From contig CM120644.1 of assembly GCA_051362555.1 (NCBI GenBank), positions 13,042,567-13,106,566 on the forward strand: DNA of 64,000 nt, in the 5' to 3' direction. The position numbers and the translations under genes are program-made. Below are positions 19,948 through 57,087 of the stretch, one piece after another (the first letter of the stretch is position 1; the number at the start of each line of letters is the position of its first letter). The notes below the pieces were generated by a model. The model saw only the letters and a program-made list of their open reading frames with translations. It did no database searches and was not told the origin of the DNA. Source of the stretch: Lingula anatina. Its lineage: Eukaryota; Animalia; Brachiopoda.

Positions 19948-19978
<31 letters not shown>

Positions 19979-25891: not shown

Positions 25892-25931
<40 letters not shown>

Positions 25932-28700: not shown

Positions 28701-29013
28701 CCCGCAAGAAAACGCAGTAGTTACTCCAGCGCAGTAGACTACTGCAATCATACTGCAAACCGCAGCAGACTACTGCAATCATACTGCAAACATGCTTCAA
28801 ATCTGCTTCGATTTGGGAGCTAATTAGCATATTTGAAACATGCTTCTATCATGCTGCTAATCTACTGCATTAATGCTCCTCTCTGTACAAACCTATGTAC
28901 TTTTTGGAGTAGAATTGCAGTAGGCTGTGCTGCATTTCTACTGCAAATATGCTCCACACCACTACTGCGTTAATGCTTTTTTGCTACTTCGATACTTCGC
29001 ATTTTCGTGCGGG
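28701..29013. mobile_element. MITE with CCCGCA ends, 2-bp TSD and actgc subterminal repeats
   Basis: cccgcaagaaaacgc ... gcattttcgtgcggg with CA on both flanks; absent from gene B. Confidence 0.75.
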
Positions 29014-31945: not shown

Positions 31946-34770
31946 ATGAGGAATGCACCTTGCATTATAGCAATATTATGGGTGGTTCTTACATTTGGGA
32001 GGTAAGAAATAAAACTACTTTGAAGACATATTAGAGATGTTAAAACGTAGCGTATGAAGAAAATTTTAGCAGCCACTCACTTTCAGATATTGCATGCTCC
32101 GGTGTAAGACCAATTACTGTTCTCCATACTTTGGCCGCATTAGCTGTATTCATAACAGTGGACTAACCATTTCGCAGATCGAATATGGCCAATCCAATTG
32201 AGTGCTTGTTGCGTTATCCTCCTGCCTGGGGAAAGTATTCAGTGTCTACAAGGGGATAAGATGGCACGCTTTCTTGTTGGTTGCCATATTTGATCCGCTG
32301 ACTAGTTAGTCCTTTGTTCTGAATACGTCCATTCAGAACAGATGATCCGCTGGCTAACTGGTGCGCGGATCAAATATGGCCGACCCCACTTGAAAACGAT
32401 GCAACTAACCCCTAATAGTCTCCCCGCCTACCACACGCGTCAGGCCTGTAGGGGTCTATTGATTCAACGGATTTTATCTCGTTTTCGAGGTTTAAATTTT
32501 CGTGAAATAGCATAGGGACTGCGTTACAATAAATTGTGTAACAGGCTACTAGAGCGCCCTGTGGTCAGAGAGTAGGTCTAAAGATACCAGTTCGCTGTCC
32601 TTTGTAAAGCCATGTAGATTTCTGAAGATTCCGCATGTAATTATCTCCTCCAATTGTCCCGTTCACGTATTTACGTGTCGATATTAATTGGAAAGAATTC
32701 ATCCCTTCAGCCGATTGACACAACCGAAGATGTTACCTTGTTGATTAACCAATCGCATTCCTCTCTAAGAATCCACTACCGATCTTCAATACCATTAAAT
32801 ATGTGAAATCTTCTTTAAAGATGACCATCGTTAGGTTTTACCTCGAAAGACATACTGATTGGTATTTCTTAGGACAAACGGCATTTTCTCCAACCAACCA
32901 ACGTTTGCTCCTCCTATTTTGTCACTCACCATATCTGTAACTCTGTAACAATTTGAGGAGTTTTAAAAGTCCTTAACATTCGTTTGAGGACAGGTTTTCA
33001 AATCCTGCTATCCTTTTTAGCATTGACTCTGTCAAGATTGTTGACAGATGGCGAAGAATCAAGAGGTGATTAATCACCTTAATTTTGGCAACATTAATTC
33101 ACAACATTTAGCATTCAATAACGTACTTTGAGTCCTTAAATGAGTTCACCAAGAAGTGATAGATGAATCTTTGCGTGAAAAAAATGAAAAAGGTATTTAA
33201 AACCGCATGATTCTGTCTGTTTAGAAGCAAGTCGTTTGATTTATGTATCATCTTTTCACTTGTATTTTAGTCCACACCGCCAAGCGCATGCCAATCACGC
33301 TATTTATCCCAAAACTTACTCCGACAGTGTTGATGGCCTGATAATAAAACAATTCGCAGGTTTGAACGGCCGGGTTGGTCAAGAGGTTGGGAATGGCAGG
33401 ACTCTCAAAGATACGGAGAACTTCCAACTTATTAGAGAACTAGAAAGTGACCCAAGCTACAGCGAAATGAAGCCCAGTTTGATGTATGATCAGTCAAGTG
33501 GAAAAGGTCATCTAAGCAAAGGCAGAAAAAGTGCAGCTAACGCTATGGAGAAGAGAATACAAAAACGTCATATAAAGAAATCAAAGAAAACAAAGAAATC
33601 AAAGAAACGTGGAAGCAAGGATCGCATTGTGAACGCAATGCTGGGAACAGTGACATTCAACGTAGGTCTCCATCCTACTGTTGTGCCTGAGTAAGTGCCT
33701 TAAACAACTAGAAAAGCATTCCGAGTGCGCAGACCTCCGCCAAGGCAGCAATTTTTGATTATTATTGATTATTGATTGATTATTGATCCGGATCACCACC
33801 ACCACCATCTGCTCCTTGGCCCTTGGCCCAGTTCCTGAAAATTTCATCAAAATCGGTCCATCGCTTTTTGAGTTATGTTGATGACAGACAAACAAACAAA
33901 CAAGGGTGAAAATATAACCTCCTTGGCGGAGGTAAAAAGGGAGTTTTTGTAACCGAAGTGATCATTATTGAACGGCATTAGGTATTCTGATGCCACAAAA
34001 GAATTACACAATGAAAACATATTTTTTTAGTTTAGAAATTTCGCTCGACTTTTTTTTTATTTTCTGTGTATCCTTTACACAATATTCGATAATAATACAC
34101 TAATATTAAAAGTCAAACGGCTAATCAGTCACGAAACCCCTTTGATATCTATGTAGAAAATAACCCTCTTTGCCTTCGAATAATCGCATTGTCATTGCCT
34201 TATTTATTTATTTCAAATAAATATATTTTTTTATTATTTATCAATCTATTTATTTTCCTTTTCAATTATGGATGATGGATTTTTAGAAACCTACATAAAT
34301 CTGTAAGCATTTGGCACCGATACTCGTGTAGGAGCAGATGTTCCTTATCTTCTGCAAACTTAACCGAGAATTTCTGTATATATCTTTTTTTTTTTTTTTG
34401 GATTAAATACATTTATTGTACATTGCTTTCCAGATACGAAACGCGAAGAGCAAAGTTTATTGAAATAATAGAAAATGGTTCTCTTCCGGGAGATGTCGTC
34501 TGCTTGCAAGAGGTTTGGGAAGCAGATGATCTTAGAGAAATTATCTCCAAGACGCGGACAGATTTTCCATTTTCCGTCAGCGCCCTGCATCAGACTATAG
34601 ATGGCGACACTGTCTTCCCTACTGCTAATCCTTCAATACCTGCTTGTACCCTTGCTGAGGTGAATATGATTAATCTGTTACAGCCTTACATCATACTTAC
34701 ATACCTACAAATCATACTTACAAAGTTAAATATGAAAAATAATTTACCTTTTAACTGAAGTGCCATCTCA

Positions 34771-34808
<38 letters not shown>

Positions 34809-37800
34809 AACACACACACACAAACGAAGTCCCACGCTGTGACTTCATACTGATTCAATTTAGTTCAATGCCTGCAGATGAGCCTCTATACTGTACTAGA
34901 AGGTTTGTCGTCGACGTGATTTCCAATTCGGAGGCATTATATTTTTGTCGGCAAGACAGTAACCATTCATAGGACCTGGTGTACGAATAGCAACACCGTA
35001 TCATTTGCATGTCATTGTAGTGGGGAAATCCATAAATAATGCGAAACAATTGATATAGTGCTGTAGTAAATTGTTTACATGCCCCGGGTATTTACCGTGC
35101 TCCAAATCTACCTGTATAAGCTACGGTACTATGGCTGGCATTTCCTTTGGCTTTGATTCCGACAGGATGTGAACGTATGTGTTCCCTGACTTAGGTCGAC
35201 GTAGCCTTTAATAGAGGAACCCCTAAATAATATGTTGATGGTAATTTATCAGGTAACATAACTGTATTCAAAGTAATTTTTCTGAGTACCGTCATCCTAC
35301 GGATATCTTTTGTCATCTACATTTAGTCCCACATGAAATTGCAGGTGAATGCGGTATCCCAGTGTTTTTTTAACAACTGCCTGGCGAACAATGCGACAGA
35401 CTTGTTCCTGTGTTTCGTTGGGAACTGCGTACCAGAGTACCAGGCGCTCTCCCAAGTCTGTTTAGCTTGTCTTCTGGCACGGCAGAGCCGCAATCCCAAA
35501 GAATTGCTTGCTTCTTTCAATAGAACTGAGTTTTGTGCTACAACCCCGTACGAAGTAACCTACGGCTTGGTGATACTTAGCAAACGACCGATAGAGGACG
35601 CCTCGTTCGTGGACTACCACGAGGGATATTCAGTGAGTGTGCCACGCGGGTATCTGCGTGCCAAGGTTAGTATATCTGGACCCCGTATTCGTTTATGCGT
35701 AAAAAATTATATACAGACTTGACATTTAATATGGAATATTTTTTCCAAATCATAATTCATCAGTTTTTTTCCTATTTTGCAGACTGATAAATGAAAATAA
35801 GGATCAAAATCGTGTTTTTATAACTTATGATAAACTGTTCCATGTCATTGTGACATCAGTTCTTTAATTGACTTCGCCAATGAAGCAAACAAAACTACAT
35901 TGCCAATCTTAAGTCATACGACAACCATTGAAAGCGATATTTTGGATCTCCATATTTTCCAAATTATCGTCTTTAAAAGAGTTACACGACCCACAAAGAA
36001 CCTTCATGTCAGCGTCTAGTCACAGTAACGGTCGCCGCTATGCCTGACCTTATCCTTCTGCTACCAGAGCTTTCAAGAGGCAAGGCATTTCTTGCGATAG
36101 TTTTTTAAGAATTTAATCTGGAATAAAAGTCCAGGCAACGGTTAAAGCTTGTCCAATTTGGTTCAATTTTGTTGTAGGACATGCTGGCCGTTGATTTGGC
36201 GACTATTGACCTAACCACATATTGTCAAAGTGAATCAAATATGGCGATTTTGATGACCAAGGTAGCTGCTCATTCCCTTGGTTCTGTAAGTTATCTGCTA
36301 ATAAAAGTGCTCTGTGTGAACCAGCAATCTGATCGTGCAACCTAAAACTGTTCCTAAGGTGTCCCCTATCAAATGATAGTCAAGTGGTTCCCAGATTATT
36401 CCTTTATTTGATCTGGTTCAGGTTTTAGTCAATGACTTCCATTGGTGTTTTGGCACCAGTGTGGTATCAACTCCAAATACTGACGCTGTTAATGGCTCTA
36501 GTCACTTCAGAAGCGGCACACACCTTGTCGTAGACCTCTTGAAGATGTCTGTAAGCTCTTTTTTTGACCAATTTAGCGGTACAGGCGAAATCTGACCTCA
36601 ATAAAGAAAACAACGCGGTTTCAATGTTCTACCCAGAAACGGTCATGGTCCCCAATTCATTAGAGAAACAGACTACGCTGTTCTGCTGTTTACAGTGGCC
36701 TCCTCAGAGGTGGGCTGGTATCTTAATCTGCTTAAACCAGTTTGGTGTTCGCTAAGAGACTTGAAAAACGCGCTTTAGTGACAATTTGCCCCTCATTTAA
36801 AACGGACTGGGTGGTTTTGGTTTAATTGCAGCAGCATATCCTGAAGGAAATTGAGTCCTGTATTCTGGTGGTAAGATATCGATACATTGGACGTGGTGTC
36901 TGTGTGGGTACATGAGCCTGGGCATAAGTCTGTGAAATTGTGCGGACCGTTTCTTTTGGGGCAATAGTCTGTCTGGCAATGTCTTTCTTTTTCGCGCCAT
37001 TCTGGCACATTTTAACAATTTTGAAAAACAATACTTAACTCATTTTACGCACTGCAAAACCGACCGCTTGCATGCAAAATTTCAATTTCTTCTATGCAAT
37101 GGTTGCCGACATATGGATACTTTTTTGACAGAACCATCCCTCGCCAAAGCCAAGCTTTGACCAGCCCAAAGGAGCACTACCCAGTTAAATCAATGCATAT
37201 TTAACAATGCAGCAGTGCATCAGACTTGGTAAGCAGTTAATTGGTAGAGACACACCTTTCTTCATACTTCCCCAGTCAGATATCTTATATGAGATCTGAG
37301 TGTTTTCAATAAAGAACGCATTTTTACCTAGGTATACCTTTAAAACTGAAATATTCCATATTAAATGTCAAGTCTGTATGTATGAAAAAATTCAGGTCTA
37401 TATGTAAAAAAAGCACGCTCGACTGTGACTTTGTTTTATCAACCCAATAAATGGACCTACAAAACCACAAAAATGACACTATACTAGTCCACCAGAACAC
37501 AATAATGCCCGATCTCTTAACCGATCGAATAGTGTAACGATGTTTTTGTCATTACATATTTAATTATTCAAAATTTAAATAATACACACAGTAGGTGTCA
37601 GTGTGAGCTAAAGGTTCTCGTCAAATTTGAAATAGATATCCAAACGTTTTATTTGCACACCGTATAGTGTTGTCAAGTTACCAATCAATAAGCATTAAAT
37701 TTTTCAGTTTCAGTACTATCGATCACCGCTACCGCTCACGAACCATAATCATACCAAATTTTGTGACAATTTTCTAAAAGAGAACTTTACTTAATTCATG

Positions 37801-39684
37801 TAGGTCAATGGTCACAATTAAATACACTTTTATTTTTAACTAAACATTTGTTCTGCAGGTCAGTGATATCCATGTGTTCTGTACTCACACCACCCCTGTT
37901 TTGACTGATGTTTACATAGATGGTGAGTATAGGATCATCATAGGTTAAAGGGATAACAACTGTTCATTTTGGCTAAAAAATGAATTTTCTTGGGGTAAAC
38001 AACAATTTTCCCATTCTTACCAATGGTTAATGAATCCAGTTCTACATTCAAATTTAGTCCATGGTTATTTTCTAGAAAGTTTGCTTTTTGTAATAATCTC
38101 GTAAGCTATAGCCATCTATGGAGGTCACATGATCGGATGACAATCACAAATTTTAGAATAATTGCTTTTTTGCCATTCTTGGTGGTGAAATAAAATATAT
38201 TATATTTCCTTGAGTTGTCTACAATGTTTTTATAGTGAAATAAAGATTCCATACGAAGAGTTGTTATCCCTTTAAGTCGTGCATTTAGGAAAGGGAGCTG
38301 GACGAGGTTGGGGGGTGCATGGCAACTGCCCCCCCCCCCTCCTCTCCGCTGCCACCTTTGCTCAACGTGTTGTTATAAGAAGACCATTCTTGCACAGACT
38401 TCATCATAAAAAAGGAAACTCTTGATGTGGCTAGGAACTGTATACCCACTAAAAATAGACTATTTAATATTACTATCCCCATTTATACTTTTTGGAATGT
38501 CAATTTGAAAGAAAAAGTAAATGCAGGGATCGTGTAACAGCTAAAGAGACAATTGAATTCTTTAGTCTTTTCACACAAGTCAGCGACAGCACATGACGTG
38601 CGCTAAGTAAGTGGGTCAAAATCTAGGACGGGGTAAGGTCTAGAAATCAGTGGAAACTGGACCTGTATCGAATTACCTTGTTTGTATGCTCAGTATGCCT
38701 TGTTTACTAGTACATCTGAACAGACTATGTTTCCTTCACTTCCTAAGTATTTAACTCTCTTTTCATATTGTACTTGGCATCCTCCATCTGGGGTTTAAAT
38801 ATTCATAAGTTGTACTAGTTAGTCAATGAATGAGCAATAATACATTATTTTAAATCCATTTTCCAGGCCGTTTCAGCAGTTACGCTGAGCAGAGTTTATA
38901 CGAACTCGGAACGCTCCTGAACGCCGCAAATCCTGACCTCGAGAGATCTCTTCTTCTTGGAGACTTTAATACTTCTCCGAGTATCCCGGATGCAAACATT
39001 ACGTCACAGCTACCCCTGTCCTATGATCTCTTGGTCCAGAATTACTTTTCCCCTTATTTGGAAACCGTTACGTTATGCACGTTCTGCTATGACAACTGGC
39101 TGACGTATAATTTGTCTAATGTTATTATAGATCACGTGCTTGTACCCAAATCCTGGAGGGACCTAATAATGGCGAAGGTAAATAGAGAGGTTAGCATCTT
39201 ACACGTGTGATTTAAAAGGAGACAGCAGCAAGCACTGCGAACATTGGTCAGAATTAAACACCAGTTATATATCTTTATTTTTGTATGATTTTATTTATTT
39301 ATTTATTTATTTATTTATTTCGCACCCGACTTTGAACAATTCTTCCATTTTGGTTTCTATTTGGTACTTGATACAATAATTTGCAATTGTTAATGAGGAT
39401 TGATTTATGTTCGGGCATGAACAAAATTGTGAGTTTGTGCAAAGTTAAAATTCGATCTGAAACCTGAAAAAAATGGCTCGTCACATATTTAATGCTCATT
39501 TGCAGTCCCCTGAAGCAGAGACACCAAAGTAGATACGAATCGTAAGAAAGTACTTTGTATTGCTAAAATAATCACACTACTTAACCCATTCCAGGCCACG
39601 CCACTGAGAATATTTGATGGAGATGACACTGTGTCGGACCATTACGGCGTAGCTTTGTTCAGCCAAGAAAATCAAGAGGAATAA
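31946..39684 (+). CDS. Secreted Cys-rich EEP-superfamily hydrolase, gene B (~495 aa)
   Basis: Exons 31946-32001, 33271-33690, 34434-34659, 35345-35665, 37859-37922, 38867-39177, 39595-39684; no stops. Signal peptide MRNAPCIIAILWVVLTFG, Lys-rich tract, and motifs TFNV, CLQEVW, THT, GDFN, IDHV, SDHYGV. Confidence 0.92.
33703..33937 (-). mobile_element. Short HINE/Helitron-like element
   Basis: Minus strand starts ttttacctccgccaaggagg, has a (GTTT/GTCT)n microsatellite, an inverted ccttggcggaggt copy, and ends ...ttttctagttgtt. Confidence 0.7.
35714..37376 (-). mobile_element. 1.66-kb Tc1/mariner element with degenerate transposase
   Basis: Perfect ~28-bp TIR cagacttgacatttaatatggaatattt; TA TSD; minus-strand remnants KKDIARQ...KETVRTI and LPWSSKSPYLIHFDNMW; absent from gene A. 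Confidence 0.9.
37949..38271. mobile_element. Kolobok-like MITE (AG...CT ends, TTAA TSD)
   Basis: ttaa-agggataacaact ... agttgttatccct-ttaa; absent from gene A; related fragment at ~57415-57500. Confidence 0.8.
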
Positions 39685-40836
39685 ATGAGAGCTCTCTCGA
39701 CATATCATTACATTTACTGGACATTGCATCGCCAGCCTGCTCGGTAAAACGACTGATGAATCAAGCCAGGGAGTGTGCAATCCTTCTTTATATATGCAGT
39801 CTGAATAGGCACACGGCCGATGGCAGCTTTCCCCAAATACGCCAGGACATGCCGCTTTTGCTTAATAAAGAAAACCCTTATGTAACATTACCAGTTTTTA
39901 TGCTGAATTGTTCAGCAAGGGTGTAGCTACATACATTTACGCAAGTTCTTTGATCGGGGAGAAACTTTGAACAGACTTTGACATGCCAGATCTAAACTTG
40001 TAAAACAAAATTCATAGAGTCATGTCTATAGCAGAGGGATCAAGGGGCATCTATTAAAATTTGGTATTTCAAAAGCACAGCTAACTCTACTTATTACTGT
40101 TTTCAAAATTGTCCTCAGGCAGTGATTTACGTCAATTGTTTTCCTCCATGGCAGTACTTCTATACCAGACGGTGACAGAAAATGTCAATACATCGCAAAT
40201 TAATTACCACCTGGCAAAACAATACGAACAGGGTTGACAAATAAGCACCTCACACGCTGCAGAAATACGTCCCCCGCTGAACTTTAAAAACATGTTTTCT
40301 AGATTGCATTGCATTTTTCAAGGTCATTTGACACACGCATGTATTCACTCAGTAAAAGTAAATATTTGACCATTGTTTTTGTCGCGCGGGAATTGGTTTC
40401 TGATGACCCTCTCTCCCAATATCTACATTTTGTCTATTTAACATTGATCTCAATTTCCTTTTTTTAAATCTTTTTTTAACGCGTTATACAGAGCGAACAC
40501 AGTAGCTAAATGGGTCAACGTTTTGGCCATCGCATGGGAACCACTATTAATGTCAGCCACGGGTAATTTGTGCTTCACCCAAGCGGCTGTACATCATATG
40601 TACCCATTTCAACCTAGCACGACCTCAGATACTACTTTGGTTGAAAAAACTTGAAATGCCCTGTCCACATTCACCACCGTTGTAGCCCCAAAACTCTGAG
40701 ACTAATTTTTAAGTAGTGGACTCTTTGCTATCACCCGTGGAGATAAAAGCGCTTCTTTCATGAGAACGGTTGTGAATGCGGACTGTACTTGGGTCATGCA
40801 GTGCACTTTTTAAGGCATTTATTATGCTGTGCTCAT

Positions 40837-40926
40837 ATATATATATATATATATATATATAGCCGGTCAGACCCGAAACTCTGTAGAGATCATACTGCGC
40901 ACTGGCAGTGCAGGACAAAAGAACTG
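40837..40926 (+). promoter_or_regulatory. Putative promoter (TA)n and non-coding first exon of Cys-peptide gene 1
   Basis: A (TA)n run is followed by a short segment ending in a strong donor CTG|GTAAGT at 40926. Matching acceptor ttctttgcag at 41577 precedes ATG 41614. Confidence 0.5.
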
Positions 40927-41613
40927 GTAAGTGACTGATATTTACCGTTTCGATATGTATATATTGCTTTATTTCAAGGTTGGAACCAATATCTTAACAA
41001 GAAATTCCGTAACAAAAGGTGTTTCATCCTTATGCGTATTTGTCTCGTGTAATTGAATATGCGATTGTGGATAAATAGATATAAAGAGAAAAATATTAGA
41101 AATGTTAATAGCGATAACAGAATCTGAGCAAGGTGATTACTTATTTTGAAGGTTTTCCCGTTTTCATATTTTGATCTGTCCTCAAGAGTAACATGGAACC
41201 GATCTTAAAAATGTTCATCATTATATGCACATGTATGAGTTTTAGACAAAATAATTTATTTTAATTATGAAGATGGAACTGCAGTTAAAATGCTTCTGAT
41301 ATCATCACAATATAATTAGTACATTCCTAAATATTTGTGATCTCGTCTGCCTTTTACATATTAATCTACAGTACCAAATGTGAACATTTTGACTATGAAA
41401 ATCAAACAATGCATCCTTTACAAGGCGCCATCATTATGGATTAAATAGATGGTGTGAGCTTCGGTGAGCTTAAAACTCCAACTGGCTGAATCAATAAAAA
41501 TATCCACCTTCATTTTACATTGTTCAATATGCGTAATGAGGTATTTTGAAACGATTACCTTTTTTCATTCTTTGCAGTGTATATTCGAACAGAAGCAATA
41601 AGTGGGGCGCAAT

Positions 41614-42368
41614 ATGAAGACCTTTTTGATACTATTGGTGGTCTTTGTGACCATTACACTCGTTAATGTGGAAAGTACAAGTGTCGAGACCAACAGGTGT
41701 GTATTTGTGACATTTATTTGTAATTAAGGATGGTTTTAACATTGTTAAGTGCTCCCGAAAGAACGGATGTCTCAACATGTCTATTAGAATATTTTCCAAA
41801 ACCGTAAGACTTTTAAAATCTTTGTGAAGACGAATGCATAGTTTTGCTGACAAAATACATTTATGTGTAACAGTACATGCAAGTAACAGTGTTAGAAAGT
41901 GGCATTCATCTTTTTTTTTCTTTTGATAATGTGACCCAATGACATTGTCCGTTCTGATACCATAAAAACAATGGAAATATGAGATAATGTGAATATATAA
42001 AACCTATAACAAAACGGTCGGCATGTCTGTGAATGGTGAATTTGTACTGATGTGAAGTAGTCTGTAATTCGACAGAACTTCATAAGTACATGTTACAACC
42101 AGAACAAATGAACGTGGATGCATTCTTTATTCGTTACCACATTTGCCAGTCTGCCATTATTGCTTGTCCACTCTCCTCATTAATCCCACGAAATCTCGTT
42201 GACTGTGTGTTATCTTGGGTGATTTAAAGTATCATTTTTGTCACATTTAGGTTGGCAGTGAAGCCCTTGAATTCAAATTCTAACTTTGAGATATTCCTGA
42301 GAAGCCGTCGCAGACGAGCATGCCCTTGCAACGGACAGTGTGGGACCTGTTACTGCTGCCTCTCGTGA
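41614..42368 (+). CDS. Small secreted Cys-rich prepropeptide 1 (66 aa; predicted mature ACPCNGQCGTCYCCLS)
   Basis: Exons 41614-41696 and 42251-42368 (phase 2): MKTFLILLVVFVTITLVNVESTSVETNRLAVKPLNSNSNFEIFLRSRRRR-ACPCNGQCGTCYCCLS*. AATAAA at ~42535 and ~42555. Confidence 0.85.
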
Positions 42369-43275
42369 CAGGTGAAGACGAGGGAACGAAACATCTAACC
42401 TGTGCCGTCACATGTGCACGTCAAGTGAATGTTATTGTAGGCAATCGATCTTCTGAGGTGCAAAAACTTTCTATGTTGAACTTAAACTATCAAAATATTA
42501 ATTTTCAATATTCTCAGAATATTTTTGTGCGAAAAAATAAACCATATTGAATTGAATAAAACAACCAAATTAAATGTCTGTTTCTTTTTTATTCTGTTTG
42601 AACATGTCACATGACATGGGCAAGTTTCAAGAAGCTGTCGTTAGTTATAACAAGTAACGACAGAACTACCTGGCTAGCGAGAAGACTTAATATATTTATA
42701 AATTTAAAATTATATGAGTTTTATTGGCCCATAACAGGACCGGGTTGAGTTGAGAAACCTTTGTTAACATTTTTTCTAACCTAAGTCGTTCGTTCACTGG
42801 ACTTTAATAAGGTTGACAAAGAGTCAGCTAACACGCTGCAGACATAACGACTCCAGCTGAATCCTGACAAACGTTTGTATTACTGATTTACATATAAGGT
42901 CATTCAAAACACGCATACATGCACTTTTAGTATTAAGTTAATTTTTCTTTAATTGGTTCTTTGATTGCAATAAGAAACACTTCAAATTTCAAGAATTAGG
43001 TTTTGCGTTTATCATAATAAGGCGATTCTGAATGCGGTCTGCTCTAAGCTCAGGCAATGTCTTTTTTAAAGGCACTTATTATGTTGAGTTCATAACCAGT
43101 CAGACCCGAGACTTTTTAGAGATTTCACTGCACATTGGCCGTGCAGGGCAAAATAAATGGATAGTTTCGCTGACAAAAATATGTTTAATAGTACATGTAA
43201 GTGACAGTGCATCAAAGTGACATTTAACTATTTTCGTCCATTATGATAGCCTAATGAAAAAACGTTATACAAGTA

Positions 43276-44238
43276 GGCCCTGTTTCATCAAGGCTGGATA
43301 GGCTATCCTATGGATAACACTATCCAAGGTATAAATTTCTTATCCTCTGTATAGTTATCCTCTGTATAAATTCGTGTTTCACAAAGGCTGGATAAACAGC
43401 ATGATAGTAATCCAGTGGATAAAAGATTATCCAATACCATATTTAGAAAAAGACATTCCCATAATGCAGTTGGTTGCTATATACATTATAAAAGCCATGA
43501 TAGTTGCTAACAAAAAAAGTGATTTATAGCATATTTGGAAAATAAATTACCCATGATTAACAATATTCTAAGTATATTTCAAGATGGTACATTCATTAAA
43601 ATAATGGGACTAATATATACAGCATATTTTAGTGTCAGTGTCAAAAACACATCACATTGCATTAGTTGTGCCTCATGCTATGTTTACAATTTGAAGGGCG
43701 AGGGTTGAAGGGCAAGGTCGTGACATACTTTCTAACAAAATGGCTGACTTGGCAAGTTTGGCAGATTATGTCAATAGCAGTGTAGAGTTTTTTCGTCGAT
43801 TTAAAAGGTATGTTTTAGTAAAATAAAAGATAATTGGTCTCTCATGGAGATTGCATGGGTTCTGTTCGTAGCAGGCGCGCTGTCAACTTTGATCAAGTCT
43901 GTTATGTAATCTATTGTTTCAGCATCACTCAAAGAATTAAAAGCAAACACACACATCTTTTAAAATTCTCTTTCTAATTATTCTCCGCCTGTGAAATCTC
44001 ACAGGATTTACTGCCAAACCAAGCAGGTTAGTCATTTTTGATGATTTAACAGCATGATAGCAGATTTATCCCGCCTATTTCGAGCGGACAACCTTACCCT
44101 CTGGATAAGCTGATTTATCCCCGGGATAACGCTATCCACTGTTGATGAAACGCACTATCCTCTGGATAGCTCTATCCAGAGGAGAGCGGCCATTTTTATC
44201 CATAGGATAGCGCTATCCAGCCTTGATGAAACCGGGCC
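43276..44238. mobile_element. 963-bp PIF/Harbinger-type non-autonomous element
   Basis: TIR ggccctgtttcatcaaggctggatag / ctatccagccttgatgaaaccgggcc; 3-bp TSD GTA; many ctatcc/ggatag subterminal repeats. Confidence 0.9.
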
Positions 44239-44240
44239 GT

Positions 44241-44865
44241 AACCTATAACAAATCTGTAGGCAAGTCTTAGAATGGTGAATTCGTACCGTTGTGCAATAT
44301 ACTGTAGTCCGTAATTCGACAGAACTAAAGATGTAACAACCAGAAAAATGAACGTGGATAAATTCTGTATACTTTTATTCGTTACCACATTCGTTTGTCT
44401 ACCATTATTTCTGGCCCCACTCTTCTCCAAAATCCCACGAATTTCTTGTTTGACTTTCCGCTAGGTCGCAAGACTTCGGATTATCTCGGGTGATTTAATG
44501 TTTTTTGGATCACAATAAGGTTGGCAGCAAAGCCGTTGGCAGTCGAGCATGCCCTTGCATCAGCCTATGTGGATCCTGTTTGTGCTGCATTTCGTGACAG
44601 GTCAAGACGAGGGAAGGAAACACTTAAATTGTGCTGTCACATGTGCAAGTCAAGTGAATTGTTATTTTATGCTATGAATCTGCTGAGGTGAAAACAGTTT
44701 CTATATTGCAAACTATCAACATATTAATTTTCAATATTAAAAGAATAGTTTTGTGCACAAAAATTAAACCTCGTGAATCGTATAAAACAATCAAATTTAT
44801 TGTCTGTTTCTTTTCTGTTTGAACATGTCACAGGCCAGAGGTTTCAGGAAGCATTCGTTAGTTAG
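44241..44865 (+). pseudogene. Duplicate of 42001-42650 carrying a frameshifted last exon of the Cys-peptide gene (ACPCISLCGSCLCCIS*)
   Basis: Colinear with the intron, last exon and 3' UTR of gene 1. A 40-nt deletion removes the pro-region and furin site; no separate signal-peptide exon found. Confidence 0.8.
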
Positions 44866-46005
44866 CGATCGGTCGTTATATAGCATCTCGTTAGTTATGA
44901 GTGCTGTTTCACGAAACTCTCTAATTATCTCGTTCTTTATTGTCCCGTTGTTGCCATGGATATTTAGCGAATGGGTCAGACCTTAATTTATCTTATCCAG
45001 TTACTAACTGGACAAGGCCAAATCCCAATTGGGGCCTGATCTAGGCCAGATCCATATTCGGTTTTTGCATTGTTAGCAGTTAAATGAGCATGTTTATGGG
45101 CTAAGTAATTATTTTTTGTCTTTTTGATTTGTCCAAGATGGCGGTATATGACGACGTGCATCATAATACCCCCGTGTCTATATGTCCCTAGGTGGGTGTC
45201 ATACTCAATAGTATTTATAGCACTACTGATACGCAATTATGGCATTAGCTGGGTAAGTGCTGCCTGTGACATTTAAAATGCAATTCATTCACCTAGCTGT
45301 TGAGAAAAGCGTGACGGTCAAGTTATAAAAACCTTGTTAAAAACAGGCGTCTCATGGGTGACATGAATAGTATTTCAGTGAGCAGATAGACACTCCTTTT
45401 TGGGCCAAATAGTTATACACTTGTTTGGATTAAGTATTAGATACCGCTCAAACAAGATTGCATTAGCAACAAAACGCATGCCTTATGTATTTTTCTTGTT
45501 CAGCCTATGTGAGAAAACAAAAAGACAAAACACATGAACAAAAGGAAGAATAAGTCATCATTGATTTAGGACATTCAAAACTTTATTTAAAATTACCTTC
45601 ATTCAAAACGTCGTCTGTTGCACAGGGAACGTACAGTGAGGGCACATAAATTGCTTATTGGACACCGCTCGTAGTTCTATAGGGAAAGTCTAGATTTGGA
45701 CGTTCAAAGGAGGCACATGGATCGCCGGGGCATTTGCACAGAGGCACAATTTTCATGATTCGGCAACCACCGAGCGCTTAGATATATTTTTGGTCGTTGA
45801 AGGGACTCACTGTCTCTTTTAATCAATTCAGCCCGCCATGTTGTGACACTTGTAGAAAGTGAGGCCAGTTTCCGAGACCAGTTTCAAAAGTAAATTAAAT
45901 AAGAGTCGCTAGTCGTTACATAACAGGAAAATCAATCCTATGGGTAGCATCATTTTAGTACGGGGTGTTTGATAATTTAGAATTTAAAAGAAATATGTAA
46001 AGCAA

Positions 46006-46310
46006 CCTACAGGGCAAATTAAGTTGTTTTAACGTTGAAACAACGTTGAACCTTAACGTTGATAAGACATTGGATAAACGTTGGATTTGAAAGTTGGATC
46101 AACGTCAGATAACAATGTTGTATCAACGTCAGATAACAACATTGTATCAACCCCAGTTGTTAGACAACACTCTTGCATGCAAAGACAATAAAATGACCTG
46201 AAATGTTTTTTTTATTTTCGGTACAAAACACAGGTACACAATTATAACGTACACTGTAAAAACATCCAAGTGCCTGCTTTGTCTGATTTTTTTCAACGCA
46301 TTTAGCTCCT
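46006..46310 (+). mobile_element. Second copy of the 17746-18050 transposon end fragment
   Basis: High sequence similarity. Confidence 0.7.
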
Positions 46311-48551
46311 TAGTATGTTTTGCACCTAAGCATGGTACACCCTTTTAGACTGGATGTGTTTAGCAGTAGGACGTGTTTGATGGCTAAATATATGTAGGGT
46401 ATATATGTATGGCCTTTAAGTTAGGATTTCCAAGGTTTATATATATATATATATATATAAGAACACACACACACACACACACATAGCAAAGTCACAGTCA
46501 CCTCAACCTGTCTATCTATAACAGGGTACCAAGAATTGTCAACTTTGTTAACTTCACTCCATCACTTTTACAGCGACTTATTCATCCTAGTGTTAGCTGA
46601 CCTTGCAAGGAAGTTTATTGGAATGTATTTCTGAATAACATGTTAAGAAAATTCACTAGTTCACTAAAGAAAATTCACTAAAAAATTCAGTAGTTCACTA
46701 AAGCAACTTAGTGGGATGGCGTAGGGTCAGAAAATGGCAAAATAGTAACAAGAAGGATAAAATCACGGTCCATAAATATTCAAAATGGCTGCCAATTTAT
46801 GGAAACACACCAGTTTTACGTTCATTTGTATGATATAATGTATGGCAACTGGCAGCCATGTTAGTTTTTCTCATAATAGTACTGAAGGATACATATACTT
46901 TCTACACACTATAAATCTAAAGCATAAGGGTAATAAGGATATGGCACATGACAGCGGCCGTCGTGGATTTTCTTAAAATTCCCAAGATTGCACGTAGTAC
47001 TGTTACTCCCCACATACATATATTATTTAATTAGTCCTAGGATTTTTAATAAGTTCTAGGATACATGGTTGCTATCTGCTAGATATGTATTATATTGGTC
47101 GAAAGGGTATGGAAAACACAGAGTAAAATTTTATTCACTTTATTTGATAAAAAAATAATAAAGATATTTGTCCATAGAATTCCATAAAGTGGCAGCTATT
47201 TTGGATTCTTTGACAAAACGATGATTTTTTTCAGAGGACAACGCCCCTAATCTGATTAAGATGTCAAAAGGTACCCACATCCAAAATCGGTGCTTTTATC
47301 CGGCGTGTCTCGATTTTTTGCATTACGTTAACAATGAATCAACACCTTTTAGAGGAATGGATAAATATCTTTCGGAGAAGAAATGCAAGGACGAAACACT
47401 ACTACCAGTATATTATTGATTTCAGAATGTCAACCTAAAATTAACCATTTATTCTGTGTGTTTCCTTTTAGATTGCTTCAGTGCAAAATGTAGCGTTAAT
47501 TAAGTATCCCTTCAATGATAGGAAAGGAAGTACAAATTGGAAATGGTGCCTGGTAAAATACAAATGATATTTGTTAAATAAAACAGGTCCAGGATTCGAT
47601 TATTACTTCAGTACTTTGTAACCTCGCCAGCGGAAATATATTTATGTGGTCATTTTGATAACGAAACGAGCACTTGATTGGCTTAATTACATGAAAATGG
47701 GTAAATTTATATTACATTAATCACGAATAAACACTTAATCTAAGATATGGACAAATATTGATCTCTTGAACAGGAAATGAAACAACAAAACACTACTTCC
47801 AATATATAATTGATTGCAGTATGTCAATCTATAATGATATTTTTTCTATATGTTTCCGTTTAGAGTATTTGTTTTAATGCAAAATACAACGTTTATCAAG
47901 CGTCCTTCCAATTATAGGAAACGAAGTACAAATAATGCTAGTAAAATGCAACTTTCATTTGAAAATTACGGTACTACATTGAATACATCTGTGAGGGTAC
48001 TATCCGTGTCCACGGAGATCACATACATTGTACACCGTAATGTACACAAGTTGCCCTGATGACACGAAATGGCAGTACTGAAATTTTATGTTTCTGTGCA
48101 TTTACAACACGTTTGGTCTAATAGTGATTTCCCAATTTCTCGTTTCTCTATCTGTTTGTTAAATTTCAATGAAATTGCCCAAACCGCTGCTTTATATTAT
48201 TGTCTCTGTAACAGTCAGATTTTGATAAAGTAGCAGATGTGTGGCATATGTTGACTGATGTATTGATGAAGTACGCAATGTCATTTTCAAATTATTTGCT
48301 ATACATGAATAACAACATTCTTGCAACAATCCGCAGTCTTTTACCAAGTTGATATTTGATCTCAAGTTGATATGGGACAACAATGCAGAGACTATATGTT
48401 ACCGCATTCAACTTTATTCAAAGAGCACGCAATACACATAAAATTTCGAGAAAGATTCTAAAATTCGAGCTCATTCATCTCTTGTTTGAACAAAAGCTAT
48501 AGCGGTTTCCATCTTGTATGCAATGGTGCAAGCACGAAGAAGCATGTCTTT

Positions 48552-48884
48552 CTACGCTAAGCAGCACTTGCACCACGAATGACAAGTAAGGCAACACGAT
48601 CGACGGAATCGCTGCAGGAATTCTGAGATGCTAGTTATCTTCTGGTTTCCTGCCGACCTTCATGTAAAGAAAAACTAAATACTATGGAGGAAAATAGGTA
48701 AAACTAATACAAAAAATTCAAAGACAATCCTTACTTTTTTATTATTATTTCTGAGCTTGATTCATTTGAGAGATGAAAATGTTTGTCTGATGTACCTTTC
48801 AACATCGGATTCGATCATTCCACTTTCAGGGGTCACGGCGGCAATGGCAACGAAGACAAGCAAAAGTAATAAATACGCCTTCAT
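48552..48884 (-). CDS. Small secreted Cys-rich prepropeptide 2 (64 aa; predicted mature SCCLTCHSWCKCCLA)
   Basis: Exons 48884-48796 and 48657-48552 (phase 2): MKAYLLLLLVFVAIAAVTPESGMIESDVERSAGNQKITSISEFLQRFRR-SCCLTCHSWCKCCLA*. Acceptor at 48921 upstream of the ATG; minus-strand AATAAA at ~48413-48418. Confidence 0.85.
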
Positions 48885-50137
48885 TCTATGTTTCAGCTCT
48901 TGTTCACGTCAAAATATCCACTAAAAGATAAGGGAGACTTTGTGTCAGAAATTAAGATTCGAAAACCATTGTGTTAAAGATGCATACAAAGTCAATTTTT
49001 TGTCACAAAAACCAACCAAATGCCAGCATATAGTTTCAAGTAGTATAACTAAGAGAATAACCAAAAGGCATTGTTTAATTTTACCCCAAAATGATGTTTG
49101 AACAGATTTTTCTGCTGGCATTCTAAGCTGTTTGTCAATGGGAAAGGAAAGTAGGTCACGGGAGTAGGTTAAATTTACAACCATAAATTTAAAGAAAGGA
49201 GCAGTCTAAAGGTCTTTTATGGCTGATCGAGTGATCTATTCAGTTTATCCCTTGGCATGTCAAATTTATTTGAGTCATATAAGAATCTAGTAGAAGTGGT
49301 TTACATGTGTTACTGGGAATCCACGCTCCACCGATGCTCGGTTCGTATGTACCTTTAACATAGCAAAAGATACCAACGGATTTTAAATATATGTGTCTTT
49401 AAATGTGTTCGTCTTTCGATCACGGCAACTGGTTATTTTTAAATTCTGGATAAAAAACCAAGCATTAAGAGACAAAAATAGCATTTAAAGATGTCTTTGA
49501 AGTCACTCTTTGCTATAAAAGACTATAGTAGTGTAACTTAGAAAAATTCCAAAAGACCTCGTTTCATTTGTCACCCGAAAAATGACATTTAGGATAATTG
49601 CTGCTTGCTTTCTGTGCTGTATATAACCGGGACAGATGCGTAGGTCAATCTACGACCAGAAATTTGAAGAAAGTGGAGTTTTAAATCTTTTTATGGCTAA
49701 TCGAGTGACGCATTCGGGTTATCCATTGGCATGTCAACTTTATTTGAGTCGTATAAGAAACTGTGCTCCAATATGTTACTGGAGAACCCATCTCGTTTTT
49801 ATGTAACTTTTAGAGAATCCAGAGTTAAATTTAAGGGCCCTGTCCTTGTTTATTTCAGTCCGAAATATTACCAGTGACCCCAAATCAATAAAGTATCTCA
49901 TCTTGTTCACTTAACCAGGTTTGTTTTTATAACATTCCAACTCTGCAAAAATTGTATTTGATTGCACTTCCATTATTGTTGTCATATATCCTTTATACTT
50001 TACTTTTACCCTGGATATCAAAAGTACTTGATATTAATCAGCCTCTGTGAATAAATTAATTGAGAGAGAAAGAGAGAAGGAGATAGATAGATAATACAAA
50101 CGGTATACAACAAGTCAAGGGAAACCTTCCAATGCAG

Positions 50138-50446
50138 GGCCCAGTTTAGCACTAACCAGTGTTTAACTCTAACCAGTGGATAAATTCCCCTAAACCCCGT
50201 TAACTAAATGACGGATGAAATTGTGTTTCATAAACAGTGTTTAAACAGTCTGTTAGTTAACTGACCTTTAAATAATTATTTTATCCAGTTAAACACTGGC
50301 CAGTTAACTAATTGGCTGTTTTTAGTCAGAACACTGTATATGAAACACATTTTAACCATCTTTTAGTTAATGGGTGTTAGGAGAATTTATCCACTGGTTA
50401 GGCTTATCCACTGGTTAGTGCTAAACGTCCTTTATAAAACTGGGCC
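50138..50446. mobile_element. Harbinger-type foldback MITE
   Basis: ggcccagttt...tagcactaaccagtg mirrored by cactggttagtgcta...aaactgggcc; 3-bp TSD CAG. Confidence 0.85.
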
Positions 50447-51562
50447 CAGAAGAATATAAAAAACGGGACTTAGAAAAATAATTTTTAAAAAGTCCTTTGT
50501 TTTAGTAAGTATTATATATATTTGTTTTTATTTAATCCCTCACACGAGTCACATGAGGTAAGCATTTAGTTTAACGAAACGGCAATTTACCAACATCCGA
50601 ACGCGAATTGCTGCCATGTCAATAATGATAAGAAAAACAAAAAGAATAAAAAGTTTTACGTTGGAGTATTTTGCGTACGTTGGGAAAATTTACCAATCTG
50701 GTTAAAATAGATTTTCCCAAACATAAACCTCCAACTAGGACCGATTTTACATACCAGTTGATTTCCTTTTTCCTAATTGATCACTTTGCAGGCTCGACTG
50801 TATTAGTTCACTGTCTCTATCAGGCGTGGCAGTTGGGACTGTAGCACATCTGTGTCCAGTTTGCAACTGAAGTCCAGCGATAGGGTGAAATTTTTTTATT
50901 GATTAGACTGGGTAATTTATGGCTAAGGCTGAATAATATATGGCCCAAAAATCCAATCCAATTAGGCATGTTAATATGTTAGCTCTGCGGAACTGTAGAA
51001 ACTGCCGCAGGACATCAAATACTGCAATGAGGCCGCTTAAAACATTTTTTAAAGTCGCTATGCAGTGCAATGCAGAGCATCGTCTTTGTGTTGTATTCCA
51101 TTACAAAGGTTATCTGGGACAGTAAATATGTCTCTAACTTCGGTTAGCTTGAATGCTGTATGAAACTCGTTGGTGGAAGCAACTGGCCGGGGACGGGTAA
51201 AATAGGTATACTGATTTAAAACGCTGAAATATATAAACTCAGCATATAAACACTCTGGACAATAGAAGTGTCACCCAATGAATCAGAGTAATCAGATTTA
51301 TTATCCTGAAAAGGCGGAATATAAGCAATGTCAGAATATCGATATAGTTGAATTGTTCAGTCAGAACCGTTTCTTTTGTGAAATTTTATGTTAATAAAAT
51401 GATACCAGGAGCATATCATTCCACAGTCATTTATCTCCCCCAAAGTATTGGTTCAGTAGGGGTGACACTTCTATTGTCCAGTGTGTATATTAAATATCAT
51501 GTGTGCGAGGACTTTAACTATGAATGATGTAGCATTTCACATTAACACGTGTCTCAGCACGA

Positions 51563-53173: not shown

Positions 53174-55660
53174 GTGTGTGTGTGCGTGCGTGTGTGTGTG
53201 TGTTTGCATGTATTCCCATGAATGTAACCGCATGTACATGTATGTGTGTGCCAAGGCCGAAACGTAGATAAATAAATCGTCCAAAGTCGAAATTACTTTT
53301 CTGAAGTCTGCAAAACAAATTATCAACAACAGCTTAAGTCGATACACTACACTACATTAAACTACACTACACCACACTATAATGTATGAAATGGCTCATT
53401 TCAGCCTAGAGACGGCGATATCGTTTCGTTGTGGTCAGTGATGTCCAATGCAGGAGATGGGTTCCTACAAGTGACCAACGTGAAAGTGGACCCTTTTCTT
53501 GACAAAGACGAATACGTGGTCAACACAGCTGGAGAGCTTGACACGGACGCAAGTAAGAATCCAAAGCATGTAGTTAGTATTTCATCATATTTTAAGTTCG
53601 AGCAACAGTGTTTTATTTGAAAACATTCCAACTAGATAAACACACAAACATGGAGCAAAGATCACTGCCAAAGATACACACAGATAAATTGTGGTAGCTG
53701 AGATCGAGCGGATCCATTGCACAGCGACCAAATAACACATTTCATTATATTTTGATGAAGGCCACTGGCCCCTTTGTCGCAATACTAAAAAATCCTTGTA
53801 AGATTCCAGGATCTACTTTTAAGTCGGTCCATTTCTGACCTGTCCTGAAATTTTCACGAAAGATCCATACGTAACTTTTTTTTGCATTATGTTGGTGACG
53901 AACAGCCAGACATACGGAGACATAAACATAAGAGGTTATAATATAAATGAATTTATTGTTTTTAATTGCATACAAGAGGGTGTGCGTTACGCACGTCGAA
54001 TGCACGATCGTCCACATAGCTGGTTCCTCACTGAAAAGAAAGCATTAAAATTGAATCTACTAGGGCATCATAATTCTCAAATACGAGTATGTGCTTTGAC
54101 CTTCAAATAATGTTGACTTTCCTTAATGAAGATCGTTTGGAACGACGTCTAGTTTATTTTCGACAATCATCAGTAGAAAAGCCACCCAAGACGTAATACT
54201 TATCGTTATTATTAAAATTATTATTGTAATTATTTTTTCGTATTTGATATTTAGCAAAATTCATGTGGCAGACAAGGTTTTCACCTGGCAATGCTCACCC
54301 TTGGATCAATATTACCGACCTTGACCCAGTTATCCTGAAAATCCGTGGAACCCAGTTTAAACAAGATGGCGACAATTCTTGGTACATTATTACTGTAGAC
54401 GGAGATGACGTCGTTGCGAAACCAGAGGTGAGAACCTTTCTGCAATGAAGATGACTTGGCTCTTTAGTTTGCCTTTAAATTCAATAATACAGGCACCGTA
54501 CTATATGGTATCTGCATATATGTACAAAAAACAGAGGATCTCAATCAACTCACGCAAATTTGCAATGGAAAACACTCTTTACTTTAAGAACTTTAAAACG
54601 CGTACTAGTGCCATATTTCTATCAGTCATTGCTATTTACATGATCTTACTCCTGAACTGCATTTTCATACATGTATTGTATTGCATACATGTGCATTTCT
54701 CCATTCCATTCAAATCAAGAATGTTTTCCCTGGAGAGGATGCAACACAGACCAATCAGTTCCAAATATTCAACCCGTCCAGGTGGCCGGTATATAGCATG
54801 CCAGAGGTTGGGCGGAATATCAGGTAAGCTTGATTGACGCCGTGTGCGACTCCAAAGCACCAGCATATCTACCGTATAATACATATGCTTTCATACATCA
54901 ATAAAGGATATATCTATGAAATTGAATACACGTACATGTATCTTTTGATGAGGGGAAAATGATAGAAATAATGTTCATATGAAATTAAAATTTAGATTAT
55001 ATCTGCATTTAAAAGGTAGGCCAAGGGTAAGTAATGAATAATCACAGTACATAAACAAACCTAAACCACCCATCCAAGAAAAAAAAATCATCTAACGTAC
55101 TAGTACCAGTACGTTAATGGGCCTATTAATCAGATATAATACACTGCGTAAAATCTATTTTATCATTTCCCATTTCCCGATATCATTTCCCATCATTTTT
55201 TTTTTTTTTTTTTTGAAACATTGAAATACAAGAAGTTAAAGTCGACATACATGAACCTAATTGGCCATGGGCCAATTAGGTCACCATCGAAGATTCAATT
55301 TGTGAAACAGCTGCAGGCTACAGAGTATAGTTTTACATAGCTTTTTTGTAGCTGTATAGCTATACTAGCTTAGCTGTACATGTACATTGTACATGTAGCT
55401 GTAGGCCTACTTAACCATTGTAATTATGCTCATTTTAGTTTTGCATATTCAGCCTGAGTTTCAGTATTCCCCAATAACATGCACAATGTCTACATTCTAG
55501 ATTCAACATTAATAATGCTGGAAGTAACATGTTCCTTGGCTCAAGTGCAAAAGGCAAAGCTCGGAAAGTCTCGCAGGAAGGAGATCCAGAGGGCGCTAAC
55601 TACTACTGGCCGAACCCCGCCATTTTGTTTTTTGTCTACGATAGAGGGCAGCCTATATAG
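51821..55660 (+). CDS. Putative leaderless beta-trefoil (IL-1/FGF-like) protein, paralog 2 (~277 aa; alternative start at 52515)
   Basis: Exons 51821-51870, 52502-52559, 52884-53024, 53405-53552, 54255-54427, 54720-54823, 55501-55660 (TAG); phases 2/0/0/1/0/2; no stops; acidic N-terminus without a signal peptide; exon-for-exon paralog of 5838-8341. Confidence 0.85.
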
Positions 55661-56629: not shown

Positions 56630-57087
56630 TTAGAAATGTGTGTGTAAAGCTGAAACGTCAATAACCGGGTAAGTCTGTTAAATAGGGCAGTGGGGAAGTG
56701 ATCACCCGTTCTAAAAAAGGCTTAAGATTGTACACGAAAAAAAAAGGTAATTACCACATTGGTAAGCTTTCGCATGGACAGCATCTTAAAGAATGCCACG
56801 TGTCGCTGCAAACCTTTTTCAAACACCTATTGTTAAATCAGAATATTCCGCAGTTTTGCAACGCCAGACTGAATGAAGCACCGCTGTTAAACATACATGT
56901 ATATTTACGCAAACGCATCACTAAGCTACATGTTCTATAACAGCTTGCGTCACGAATAAGGAGAGAGAACATTAGCTGAATTTGAAGTAATTTTCATTTG
57001 GCAGTAACGAGTTGTGGTGAATACATCCTTTAAGAATCGACAGTAGATATTTGAATGTCGTCATAATTAAAGTCGTTAATCGCGGCA

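What the first reader, a model, noticed from the sequence alone, without database searches (positions are those of the whole stretch)
41614..48884. Unannotated family of conotoxin-like micro-peptide genes (signal-pro-furin site-15/16 aa with six Cys)
Seen: two convergent genes, both missed by the ORF track, share related signal peptides (MKTFLILLVVFVTITLVNVES / MKAYLLLLLVFVAIAAVTPES), a phase-2 intron in the pro-region, an E(I)FL..R.RR pre-cleavage motif and a CxCC(L/I)(S/A)-stop tail. A third relic exon gives ACPCISLCGSCLCCIS. Known: this prepropeptide layout is typical of conopeptides and hepcidin. Inference: a diversifying disulfide-rich toxin, defence or signalling family. The peptides are near-neutral, unlike classic cationic antimicrobials.
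Basis: partly seen in the sequence, partly recalled or inferred. Interest (0 to 1): 0.9.

Follow-up and report, generated by a model that had tools for sequence, protein, structure and literature searches.

The report
Overlooked six-cysteine secreted peptide family
A lamp shell (the brachiopod Lingula) has two intact genes, one shown to be spliced and expressed, plus one broken copy, for predicted secreted 15-16-residue peptides with six cysteines; the same cysteine core occurs in predicted precursors from other animal-like DNA, so this is likely an undescribed family of tiny disulfide-locked peptides, most likely used in defence.

Summary
The window is Lingula anatina. Genes A (+, 66 aa) and B (-, 64 aa) encode signal-pro-furin site-six-Cys precursors with a phase-2 intron. 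B's junction and an extra 5' UTR exon are read in 1 of 7 RNA runs laid; A and C have no reads. C is a pseudogene copy of A that lacks the signal exon and furin site.

New here: the A/C core C-P-C-x3-C-G-[S/T]-C-x-CC is not private to Lingula. It appears twice in an unnamed protein (P0003) and in four animal-like metagenome loci, each after a dibasic site and near a stop; one matches C at 11 of 13 residues. Their host taxa are not established, and intron phase and pro-regions differ, so homology is likely, not proven.

No Pfam, PDB, atlas or paper match was found. Conotoxin, hepcidin, MgCRP-I, CLCCY and defensin memberships fail on tested features. 'Conotoxin-like' describes the layout only.

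Best reading: an undescribed family of three-disulfide micro-peptides acting on a protein target, more likely in defence (0.45) than signalling (0.3). Function is untested, and the Lingula immunity paper could not be read.

The parts
40862..40926 (+). Gene A, predicted 5' untranslated exon (start uncertain; a TA repeat lies at 40835-40861), donor GTAAGT at 40927
   Evidence: Same exon-end and donor arrangement as B's read-supported 5' exon; homologous stretch in copy C. No reads.
41578..41696 (+). Gene A exon 2: 36 nt UTR, ATG 41614, predicted signal peptide and start of pro-region; phase-2 donor
   Evidence: colinear with B's exon from acceptor to ATG
42251..42368 (+). Gene A exon 3 coding part: pro-region, polybasic furin-type site, 16-aa mature peptide (42318-42365, C-x-C-x3-C-x2-C-x-CC), stop; AATAAA at 42536 and 42555
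   Evidence: No reads in 7 of 7 runs laid
43005..43166 (+). Copy C: homologue of A's promoter and 5' exon; donor lost, joined directly to A's second-intron equivalent (about 900 bp with the signal exon missing)
43276..44238 (.). MITE-like insertion in copy C with 43-bp terminal inverted repeats (95% alike)
   Evidence: reads from other copies end at its borders
44520..44597 (+). Copy C last exon: a 40-nt deletion has removed the furin site and shifted the frame; the six-Cys 16-codon stretch 44547-44594 and its stop remain (pseudogene)
   Evidence: No reads
48552..48657 (-). Gene B exon 3 coding part: pro-region, RFRR site, 15-aa mature peptide (48599-48555, CC-x2-C-x3-C-x-CC), stop; AATAAA at 48418
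   Evidence: covered by stranded reads in X4
48796..48920 (-). Gene B exon 2: UTR, ATG 48884, predicted signal peptide and start of pro-region
   Evidence: 4 joined reads plus 7 and 4 loose-end reads at the junction in X4
50755..50810 (-). Gene B 5' untranslated exon (upstream end not determined), donor GTATGT at 50754
   Evidence: 39 X4 reads leave at 48921 with letters that match 50756 onward by eye, with a few differences

Best explanation
Genes A and B encode predicted secreted prepropeptides that a furin-type convertase would cut to release 15-16-residue peptides, likely locked by three disulfides, and these most likely act in host defence by binding a specific extracellular protein target rather than by lysing membranes. 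Shown: gene anatomy, splicing and strand of B, pseudogene state of C, recurrence of the A/C core in other precursors. Inferred: secretion, cleavage, disulfide formation, target binding and the defensive role.
For: Signal-pro-RXXR-mature layout with the peptide at the C-terminus. B is spliced and seen in only 1 of 7 runs, which fits restricted or induced expression. Birth-and-death pattern: tandem duplicate C has decayed. Between A and C the Cys codons are identical at 18 of 18 sites, while other mature codons differ at 11 of 30 sites against 43 of 266 in the 3' UTR (one-sided Fisher p=0.009). B has rearranged Cys spacing, and X4 reads differ from the genome at four pro-region sites, all amino-acid changing (read by eye). 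The same pattern of constant Cys and variable loops is described for mussel MgCRP-I and conotoxin genes (PMC4558851 abstract and sections; PMC3862624 abstract). Near-zero charge and hydrophobic loops argue against cationic lysis.
Against: No functional data, and no peptide-level detection. A has no reads in 7 of 7 runs laid. The core is well conserved in other animal-like precursors (11 of 13 residues between C and L005), and P0003 carries two copies between basic sites; both look more like a signalling ligand than an arms-race peptide. The loop test rests on one pair, one member a pseudogene, and the whole mature region does not differ from the UTR (p=0.30). The mussel analogue MgCRP-I showed no antimicrobial, cytotoxic or insecticidal activity when synthesised (PMC4558851 section 23).
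Confidence: 0.45

Rival explanations
1. The peptides are an unrecognised neuropeptide or paracrine hormone family acting on the animal's own receptor.
For: Core conserved in P0003, L005/L110, L055 and L114 after KR/KRR sites. The invariant Ser is coded by both TCN and AGY codons in different loci, which points to long selection on the residue. P0003 is a two-copy polyprotein. Neutral charge and restricted expression fit.
Against: Not among brachiopod, phoronid or nemertean precursors in the supplement of PMC8557429 (motif searches) or in the searched supplements of PMC3890597 (11 files searched, 5 not). Fast loop change, a rearranged framework in B and pseudogenisation are unusual for a conserved hormone (general knowledge). 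No C-terminal Gly for amidation.
Confidence: 0.3
2. The peptides bind metal through their thiols, or cross-link into a secreted matrix (mucus, cuticle, shell periostracum) by disulfide exchange.
For: Six Cys in 12-13 residues with CxC, CxxC and CC motifs. Cnidarian minicollagen Cys-rich domains, which polymerise by disulfide exchange, have the same C-C-C-C-CC order (recalled, from no call).
Against: Secretory-pathway Cys are normally oxidised (general knowledge). Release of a single short unit by furin and low read depth do not suggest a bulk structural or storage protein. No Pfam match.
Confidence: 0.12
3. The peptides are true toxins aimed at ion channels of predators or parasites, convergent with short M-superfamily conotoxins.
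For: B has framework III order CC-C-C-CC with one residue in the third loop, as in the M1 group; A and C have framework XXV order C-C-C-C-CC (definitions in PMC4278219 passages).
Against: Conotoxin superfamilies are defined by signal sequence, which does not match by eye; gene structure differs. Lingula is a suspension feeder with no known venom organ (general knowledge). No toxin family hit.
Confidence: 0.08
4. The match to P0003 and the metagenome loci is convergence on a compact Cys scaffold, and the Lingula genes are a lineage-restricted family.
For: Only 13-15 residues align; signal and pro-regions do not. The intron before the last exon is phase 0 in L055, L110 and L114 but phase 2 in Lingula. 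One shared Ser uses different codon classes in C and L005.
Against: A profile built from the three Lingula sequences alone ranks those four loci first among 169 motif-bearing stretches (35.4, 33.6, 29.8 and 29.2 bits; next 16.6) and finds P0003 at E=8.5e-6 among 1.84 billion proteins. This rival concerns origin and is compatible with any of the functions above.
Confidence: 0.35

Closest known systems
Mussel MgCRP-I (PMC4558851; abstract and sections 16, 17, 19, 23 read)
   Same: Unannotated marine-invertebrate prepropeptides with six fixed Cys, dibasic site, 5' UTR exon, phase-2 intron before the last exon, pseudogenes, multi-module precursors, unknown function.
   Different: MgCRP-I is C-C-CC-C-C, 25-38 aa, cationic, four exons, Mytilus only. 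Here the order is C-C-C-C-CC or CC-C-C-CC, 15-16 aa, neutral, three exons.
M-superfamily (framework III, M1) and framework XXV conotoxins (PMC4278219 passages; PMC3862624 abstract and section 5)
   Same: Signal-pro-toxin layout; B has framework III order with a one-residue third loop; A and C have XXV order; phase-2 intron before the mature exon; fixed Cys codons.
   Different: Different signal sequence, one coding intron instead of two, much shorter loops, non-venomous host.
Hepcidin (PMC3325200 passages)
   Same: Signal-pro-RX(K/R)R-Cys-dense C-terminal peptide with vicinal Cys.
   Different: Hepcidin is 20-25 aa with six to eight Cys, has two introns in the coding region and is reported only from vertebrates; no Pfam hit here.
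Trans-defensins: alpha, beta and big defensins (PMC7203481 passages)
   Same: Six Cys; the alpha-defensin order with an opening CxC, a G-x-C and a closing CC resembles A and C (order recalled). Big defensin genes have three exons with coding sequence in exons 2 and 3.
   Different: A 13-residue core is likely too short for three antiparallel strands; intron phase is 2, not 1; neutral; no Pfam hit.
CLCCY lophotrochozoan proneuropeptide (PMC3890597 and PMC8557429 supplements, matched passages)
   Same: Short signal-pro-basic site-Cys-rich precursor, reported in brachiopods.
   Different: CLCCY mature peptides are much longer, with eight Cys in a C-C-CC-C-C-C-C order; no sequence likeness.

Membership tests
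Conotoxin M superfamily | M-superfamily signal sequence | tested here: not met
   Signal sequence defines superfamilies; compared by eye with the M precursor printed, no likeness beyond hydrophobicity
Conotoxin M superfamily | Cys framework III, CC-C-C-CC | tested here: met
   Met by B only, with a one-residue third loop; A and C have XXV order
Conotoxin M superfamily | Three exons with a phase-1 and a phase-2 intron in the precursor | tested here: not met
   One coding intron, phase 2
Conotoxin M superfamily | Venom-gland product active on channels or receptors | not testable with these tools
   Host is a brachiopod; no assay possible
Hepcidin | RX(K/R)R convertase site before a C-terminal Cys-rich peptide | tested here: met
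Hepcidin | 20-25-aa mature peptide matching the hepcidin profile | tested here: not met
   15-16 aa; no Pfam family for the last exons at E up to 10 (weak hits are filtered out)
Hepcidin | Two introns within the coding region | tested here: not met
   One coding intron and one UTR intron
MgCRP-I | C-C-CC-C-C array, 25-38 aa, cationic | tested here: not met
MgCRP-I | 5' UTR exon and phase-2 intron before the last exon | tested here: met
   the additional phase-1 intron of MgCRP-I is absent
CLCCY proneuropeptide | Long eight-Cys mature peptide | tested here: not met
   Precursors printed
Trans-defensins | Three antiparallel beta-strands held by three disulfides | tested here: inconclusive
   AlphaFold model of A's last exon has mean pLDDT 60 and no strands; too weak to judge
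Trans-defensins | Profile match and phase-1 coding intron (big defensins) | tested here: not met
   No Pfam hit; phase 2 here
Secreted disulfide-rich prepropeptides (general kind) | Cleaved signal peptide | tested here: inconclusive
   Hydropathy up to 3.8 and 3.6 over nine residues after Met-Lys; SignalP not available
Secreted disulfide-rich prepropeptides (general kind) | Spliced mRNA | tested here: met
   B in run X4; A not seen
Secreted disulfide-rich prepropeptides (general kind) | Released mature peptide with three disulfides | not testable with these tools
   Needs peptidomics

The most novel reading that the evidence does not exclude
C-P-C-x3-C-G-[S/T]-C-x-CC is the core of an ancient, widespread animal peptide ligand family, with three disulfides in 13 residues, shared by a brachiopod and distantly related marine animals and missed by gene annotation because the genes are tiny; it has its own undiscovered receptor or target.
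Probability: 0.3. Interest if true: 0.82.

Novelty: new variant of a known kind. Interest (0 to 1): 0.58.

Why it matters
Brachiopod peptide defences and signals are barely described in the library searched. A 13-residue core with six cysteines is about as compact as a three-disulfide scaffold can be; hepcidin, short conotoxins and guanylin-type peptides show that such scaffolds can be selective ligands (general knowledge). If the core is shared across phyla, it defines a new peptide family that can be found by a simple motif search and made by routine synthesis, so its function is directly testable.

Tried and rejected
No own genome was held, so family size in Lingula is unknown. No RNA holder was listed for the stretch; same-species raw-read runs were laid instead. 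Word-based protein searches with B's signal exon and with the three last exons found no candidate at 22-70 and 17-79 aa. ESM Atlas gave no usable hit for either exon. PDB sequence searches gave only weak unrelated matches or none. Pfam named none of the peptide exons or homologues; copy C was given in the wrong frame, corrected. CLCCY was suspected from memory and rejected on the printed sequences; Platynereis PCNamide, CCAamide, SHM and RNT do not match either. Coral digitiferin is ShK-type and unrelated (PMC12496222 passages). The prokaryotic pattern matches (63 loci) are treated as chance: 0 of 57 open motif stretches have the six-Cys, dibasic and stop context. A BRICHOS-precursor origin for the L005/L055 genes is a recollection only; Pfam and PDB did not confirm it. 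AlphaFold of A's last exon was uninformative; the second fold was still queued, and a fold search could not be run. The records behind L055, L110 and L114 are not held for further search. Earlier scan findings: none in 5 look-ups.
Full report
ORGANISM AND SETTING. An exon upstream of the finding is 99% identical to RefSeq LOC106164300 of Lingula anatina, and that protein maps across window 31946-39681 at 89-100% identity. The window is therefore Lingula DNA, and the peptide cluster begins about 1.2 kb downstream of this endonuclease/exonuclease/phosphatase-family gene. No whole genome was held.

OBSERVATION. Gene A (+) has coding exons 41614-41696 and 42251-42368 and gives 66 aa. Gene B (-) has 48884-48796 and 48657-48552 and gives 64 aa. 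Both coding introns are GT-AG and phase 2. Each precursor has Met-Lys, a hydrophobic core, a short pro-region, an R-X-X-R site and a terminal peptide of 16 (A) or 15 (B) residues with six Cys. Cys spacing is C-x-C-x3-C-x2-C-x-CC in A and C, and CC-x2-C-x3-C-x-CC in B. A and B are homologous: no shuffle reached the signal-exon score (0 of 20000 protein, 0 of 2000 DNA), and 23 of 20000 reached the last-exon score. The terminal pattern, drawn from these peptides, occurs three times in the window and never in 150 simulated windows. A window-wide tblastn found no further copy.

EXPRESSION. Nine same-species RNA runs were offered; seven were laid, at 6-30% of their reads (X1, X2, X4, X7; X4, X5, X6, X9). 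B is covered only in X4, with all first mates on +, which in most stranded libraries means RNA of the minus strand. Four reads with four starts skip exactly the 138-nt intron, and 7 plus 4 loose-end reads carry the other exon's letters. Thirty-nine reads leave at 48921 into letters that match 50756 onward, where a GTATGT donor lies, so B has a 5' untranslated exon. The X4 letters differ from the genome at four pro-region sites, all amino-acid changing, so X4 shows a divergent allele or a close paralogue (read by eye). A and C have no reads on their exons in 7 of 7 runs; tissues are unknown, so this does not show that A is silent. A has a matching acceptor at 41578 and a donor after 40926, a predicted 5' exon.

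COPY C. It is a tandem duplicate of A: promoter and 5' exon (43005-43166), second intron, last exon and 3' UTR (44241-44864, 71% over the gapped alignment). It has lost the first donor and about 900 bp including the signal exon, carries a MITE-like insertion (43276-44238), and has a 40-nt deletion that removes the furin site and shifts the frame. It is a pseudogene. Between A and C, Cys codons are identical at 18 of 18 sites; other mature codons differ at 11 of 30, against 43 of 266 in the 3' UTR (p=0.009). The whole mature region does not differ from the UTR (p=0.30).

RELATIVES ELSEWHERE. Word-based searches, Pfam, PDB and the ESM Atlas found nothing, which supports the claim that these genes are unannotated. 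A profile of the three last exons against 1.84 billion representatives gave one hit, P0003 (E=8.5e-6): an unnamed 79-aa singleton with two tandem copies of C-P-C-x3-C-G-S-C-x-CC, each after a basic site. Of 169 open motif stretches, 4 of 112 metagenomic and 0 of 57 prokaryotic ones have exactly six Cys, an upstream KR or RR and a stop within 12 residues: L005, L110, L055 and L114. A profile from Lingula alone ranks the same four first (35.4-29.2 bits; next 16.6). L005 is a spliced-looking contig with a complete 70-aa signal-pro-KRR-peptide precursor; L110 is the same gene with its intron; L055 is a related gene with introns; L114 is a more distant last exon. The L005 core matches C at 11 of 13 residues with different codons. 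These loci are 35-41% GC and animal-like, but no call establishes their taxon. Against homology: only the core aligns, and the intron before the last exon is phase 0 there and phase 2 in Lingula. I put homology at about 0.65.

MECHANISM. Inferred steps: ER entry by the signal peptide, oxidation of six Cys to three disulfides, convertase cleavage at the polybasic site, secretion. With six Cys in 12-13 residues, a net charge near zero and hydrophobic loops, the peptide is unlikely to lyse membranes and more likely presents a small rigid surface to a protein target. Duplication, decay, fast loops, a rearranged framework and restricted expression favour defence (0.45). Conservation of the core elsewhere and the two-copy precursor favour an endogenous ligand (0.3). 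Metal binding or matrix cross-linking (0.12) and a channel toxin (0.08) remain. AlphaFold gave mean pLDDT 60 with only a pro-region helix, so the fold is unknown.

KNOWN FAMILIES. B shares Cys order with framework III (M1) conotoxins and A/C with framework XXV (PMC4278219, passages), but the signal sequence and gene structure differ (PMC3862624, abstract and section 5). Hepcidin shares the cleavage motif, not length, gene structure or profile (PMC3325200, passages). MgCRP-I is the closest analogue in kind, with a different Cys array (PMC4558851, abstract and four sections). CLCCY is a longer eight-Cys peptide (supplement passages). Defensin and minicollagen resemblances are partly recalled and fail Pfam. 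It works like a short disulfide-rich secreted effector; it is not shown to be a member of any of these families.

LITERATURE. Full-text searches for five core motifs gave 4 papers, all on bacterial resistance genes by their listing and so taken as chance letter matches. Searches on Lingula or brachiopods with antimicrobial, cysteine-rich, conotoxin, toxin or hepcidin terms listed no paper whose title or abstract describes these peptides (listings only, except papers cited as read). Motif searches of the supplement of PMC8557429 were blank; 5 supplementary files of PMC3890597 were not searched. Gerdol et al. 2018 on Lingula immunity is not held and may describe these genes. Subscription journals, bioRxiv supplements, figures, ConoServer and eukaryotic transcriptome databases were not seen.

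VERDICT. Real, expressed (B), unannotated, and likely part of a wider undescribed family defined by a 13-residue six-Cys core. It is a new variant of a known kind, interest 0.58; 0.82 if it proves to be an ancient cross-phylum ligand family (probability 0.3).

Noticed in passing
window 18922-29931 and 31946-39681 (+): Two tandem paralogues of a secreted endonuclease/exonuclease/phosphatase-family protein (LOC106164300 and a relative of LOC106175644), 75-93% alike exon by exon.
   Followed up: partly
L005 745-464 (-) and L055 1089-943 (-): An upstream sister ORF (P0006) and an internal exon share a beta-rich-looking segment that I recall from the region ahead of BRICHOS domains. If right, these peptide genes derive from BRICHOS precursors that lost the domain. 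Pfam and PDB did not confirm it.
   Followed up: partly
window 57085-57338 and 57899 onward (+): Signal peptide plus a segment that looks like a reeler domain (recalled); Pfam gave no hit on the single exon.
   Followed up: partly
window 43276-44238: MITE-like element with 43-bp terminal inverted repeats and internal palindromes; transcribed copies from elsewhere lay on it.
   Followed up: partly
window 7056-7177 (-) with 54312-54433 (+), and 7567-7775 with 53343-53556: Two oppositely oriented paralogous multi-exon genes, 76-78% alike in these exons, not identified.
   Followed up: no
window 50144-50426: A 283-bp imperfect palindrome inside B's first intron, probably a small mobile element.
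   Followed up: no
window 24483-25079, 58300-59133 and 506-864: Dispersed tandem repeat units of about 160 bp, a satellite or transposon-derived family.
   Followed up: no
window 48972-49288 and 49527-49762: A repeat that draws hundreds of RNA reads from other loci in all four runs, inside B's first intron.
   Followed up: no
L129-L131: Four pattern matches within about 4 kb of one Solirubrobacterales MAG contig, in a GC-rich repeated stretch; they lack the dibasic-plus-stop context and are treated as chance.
   Followed up: no
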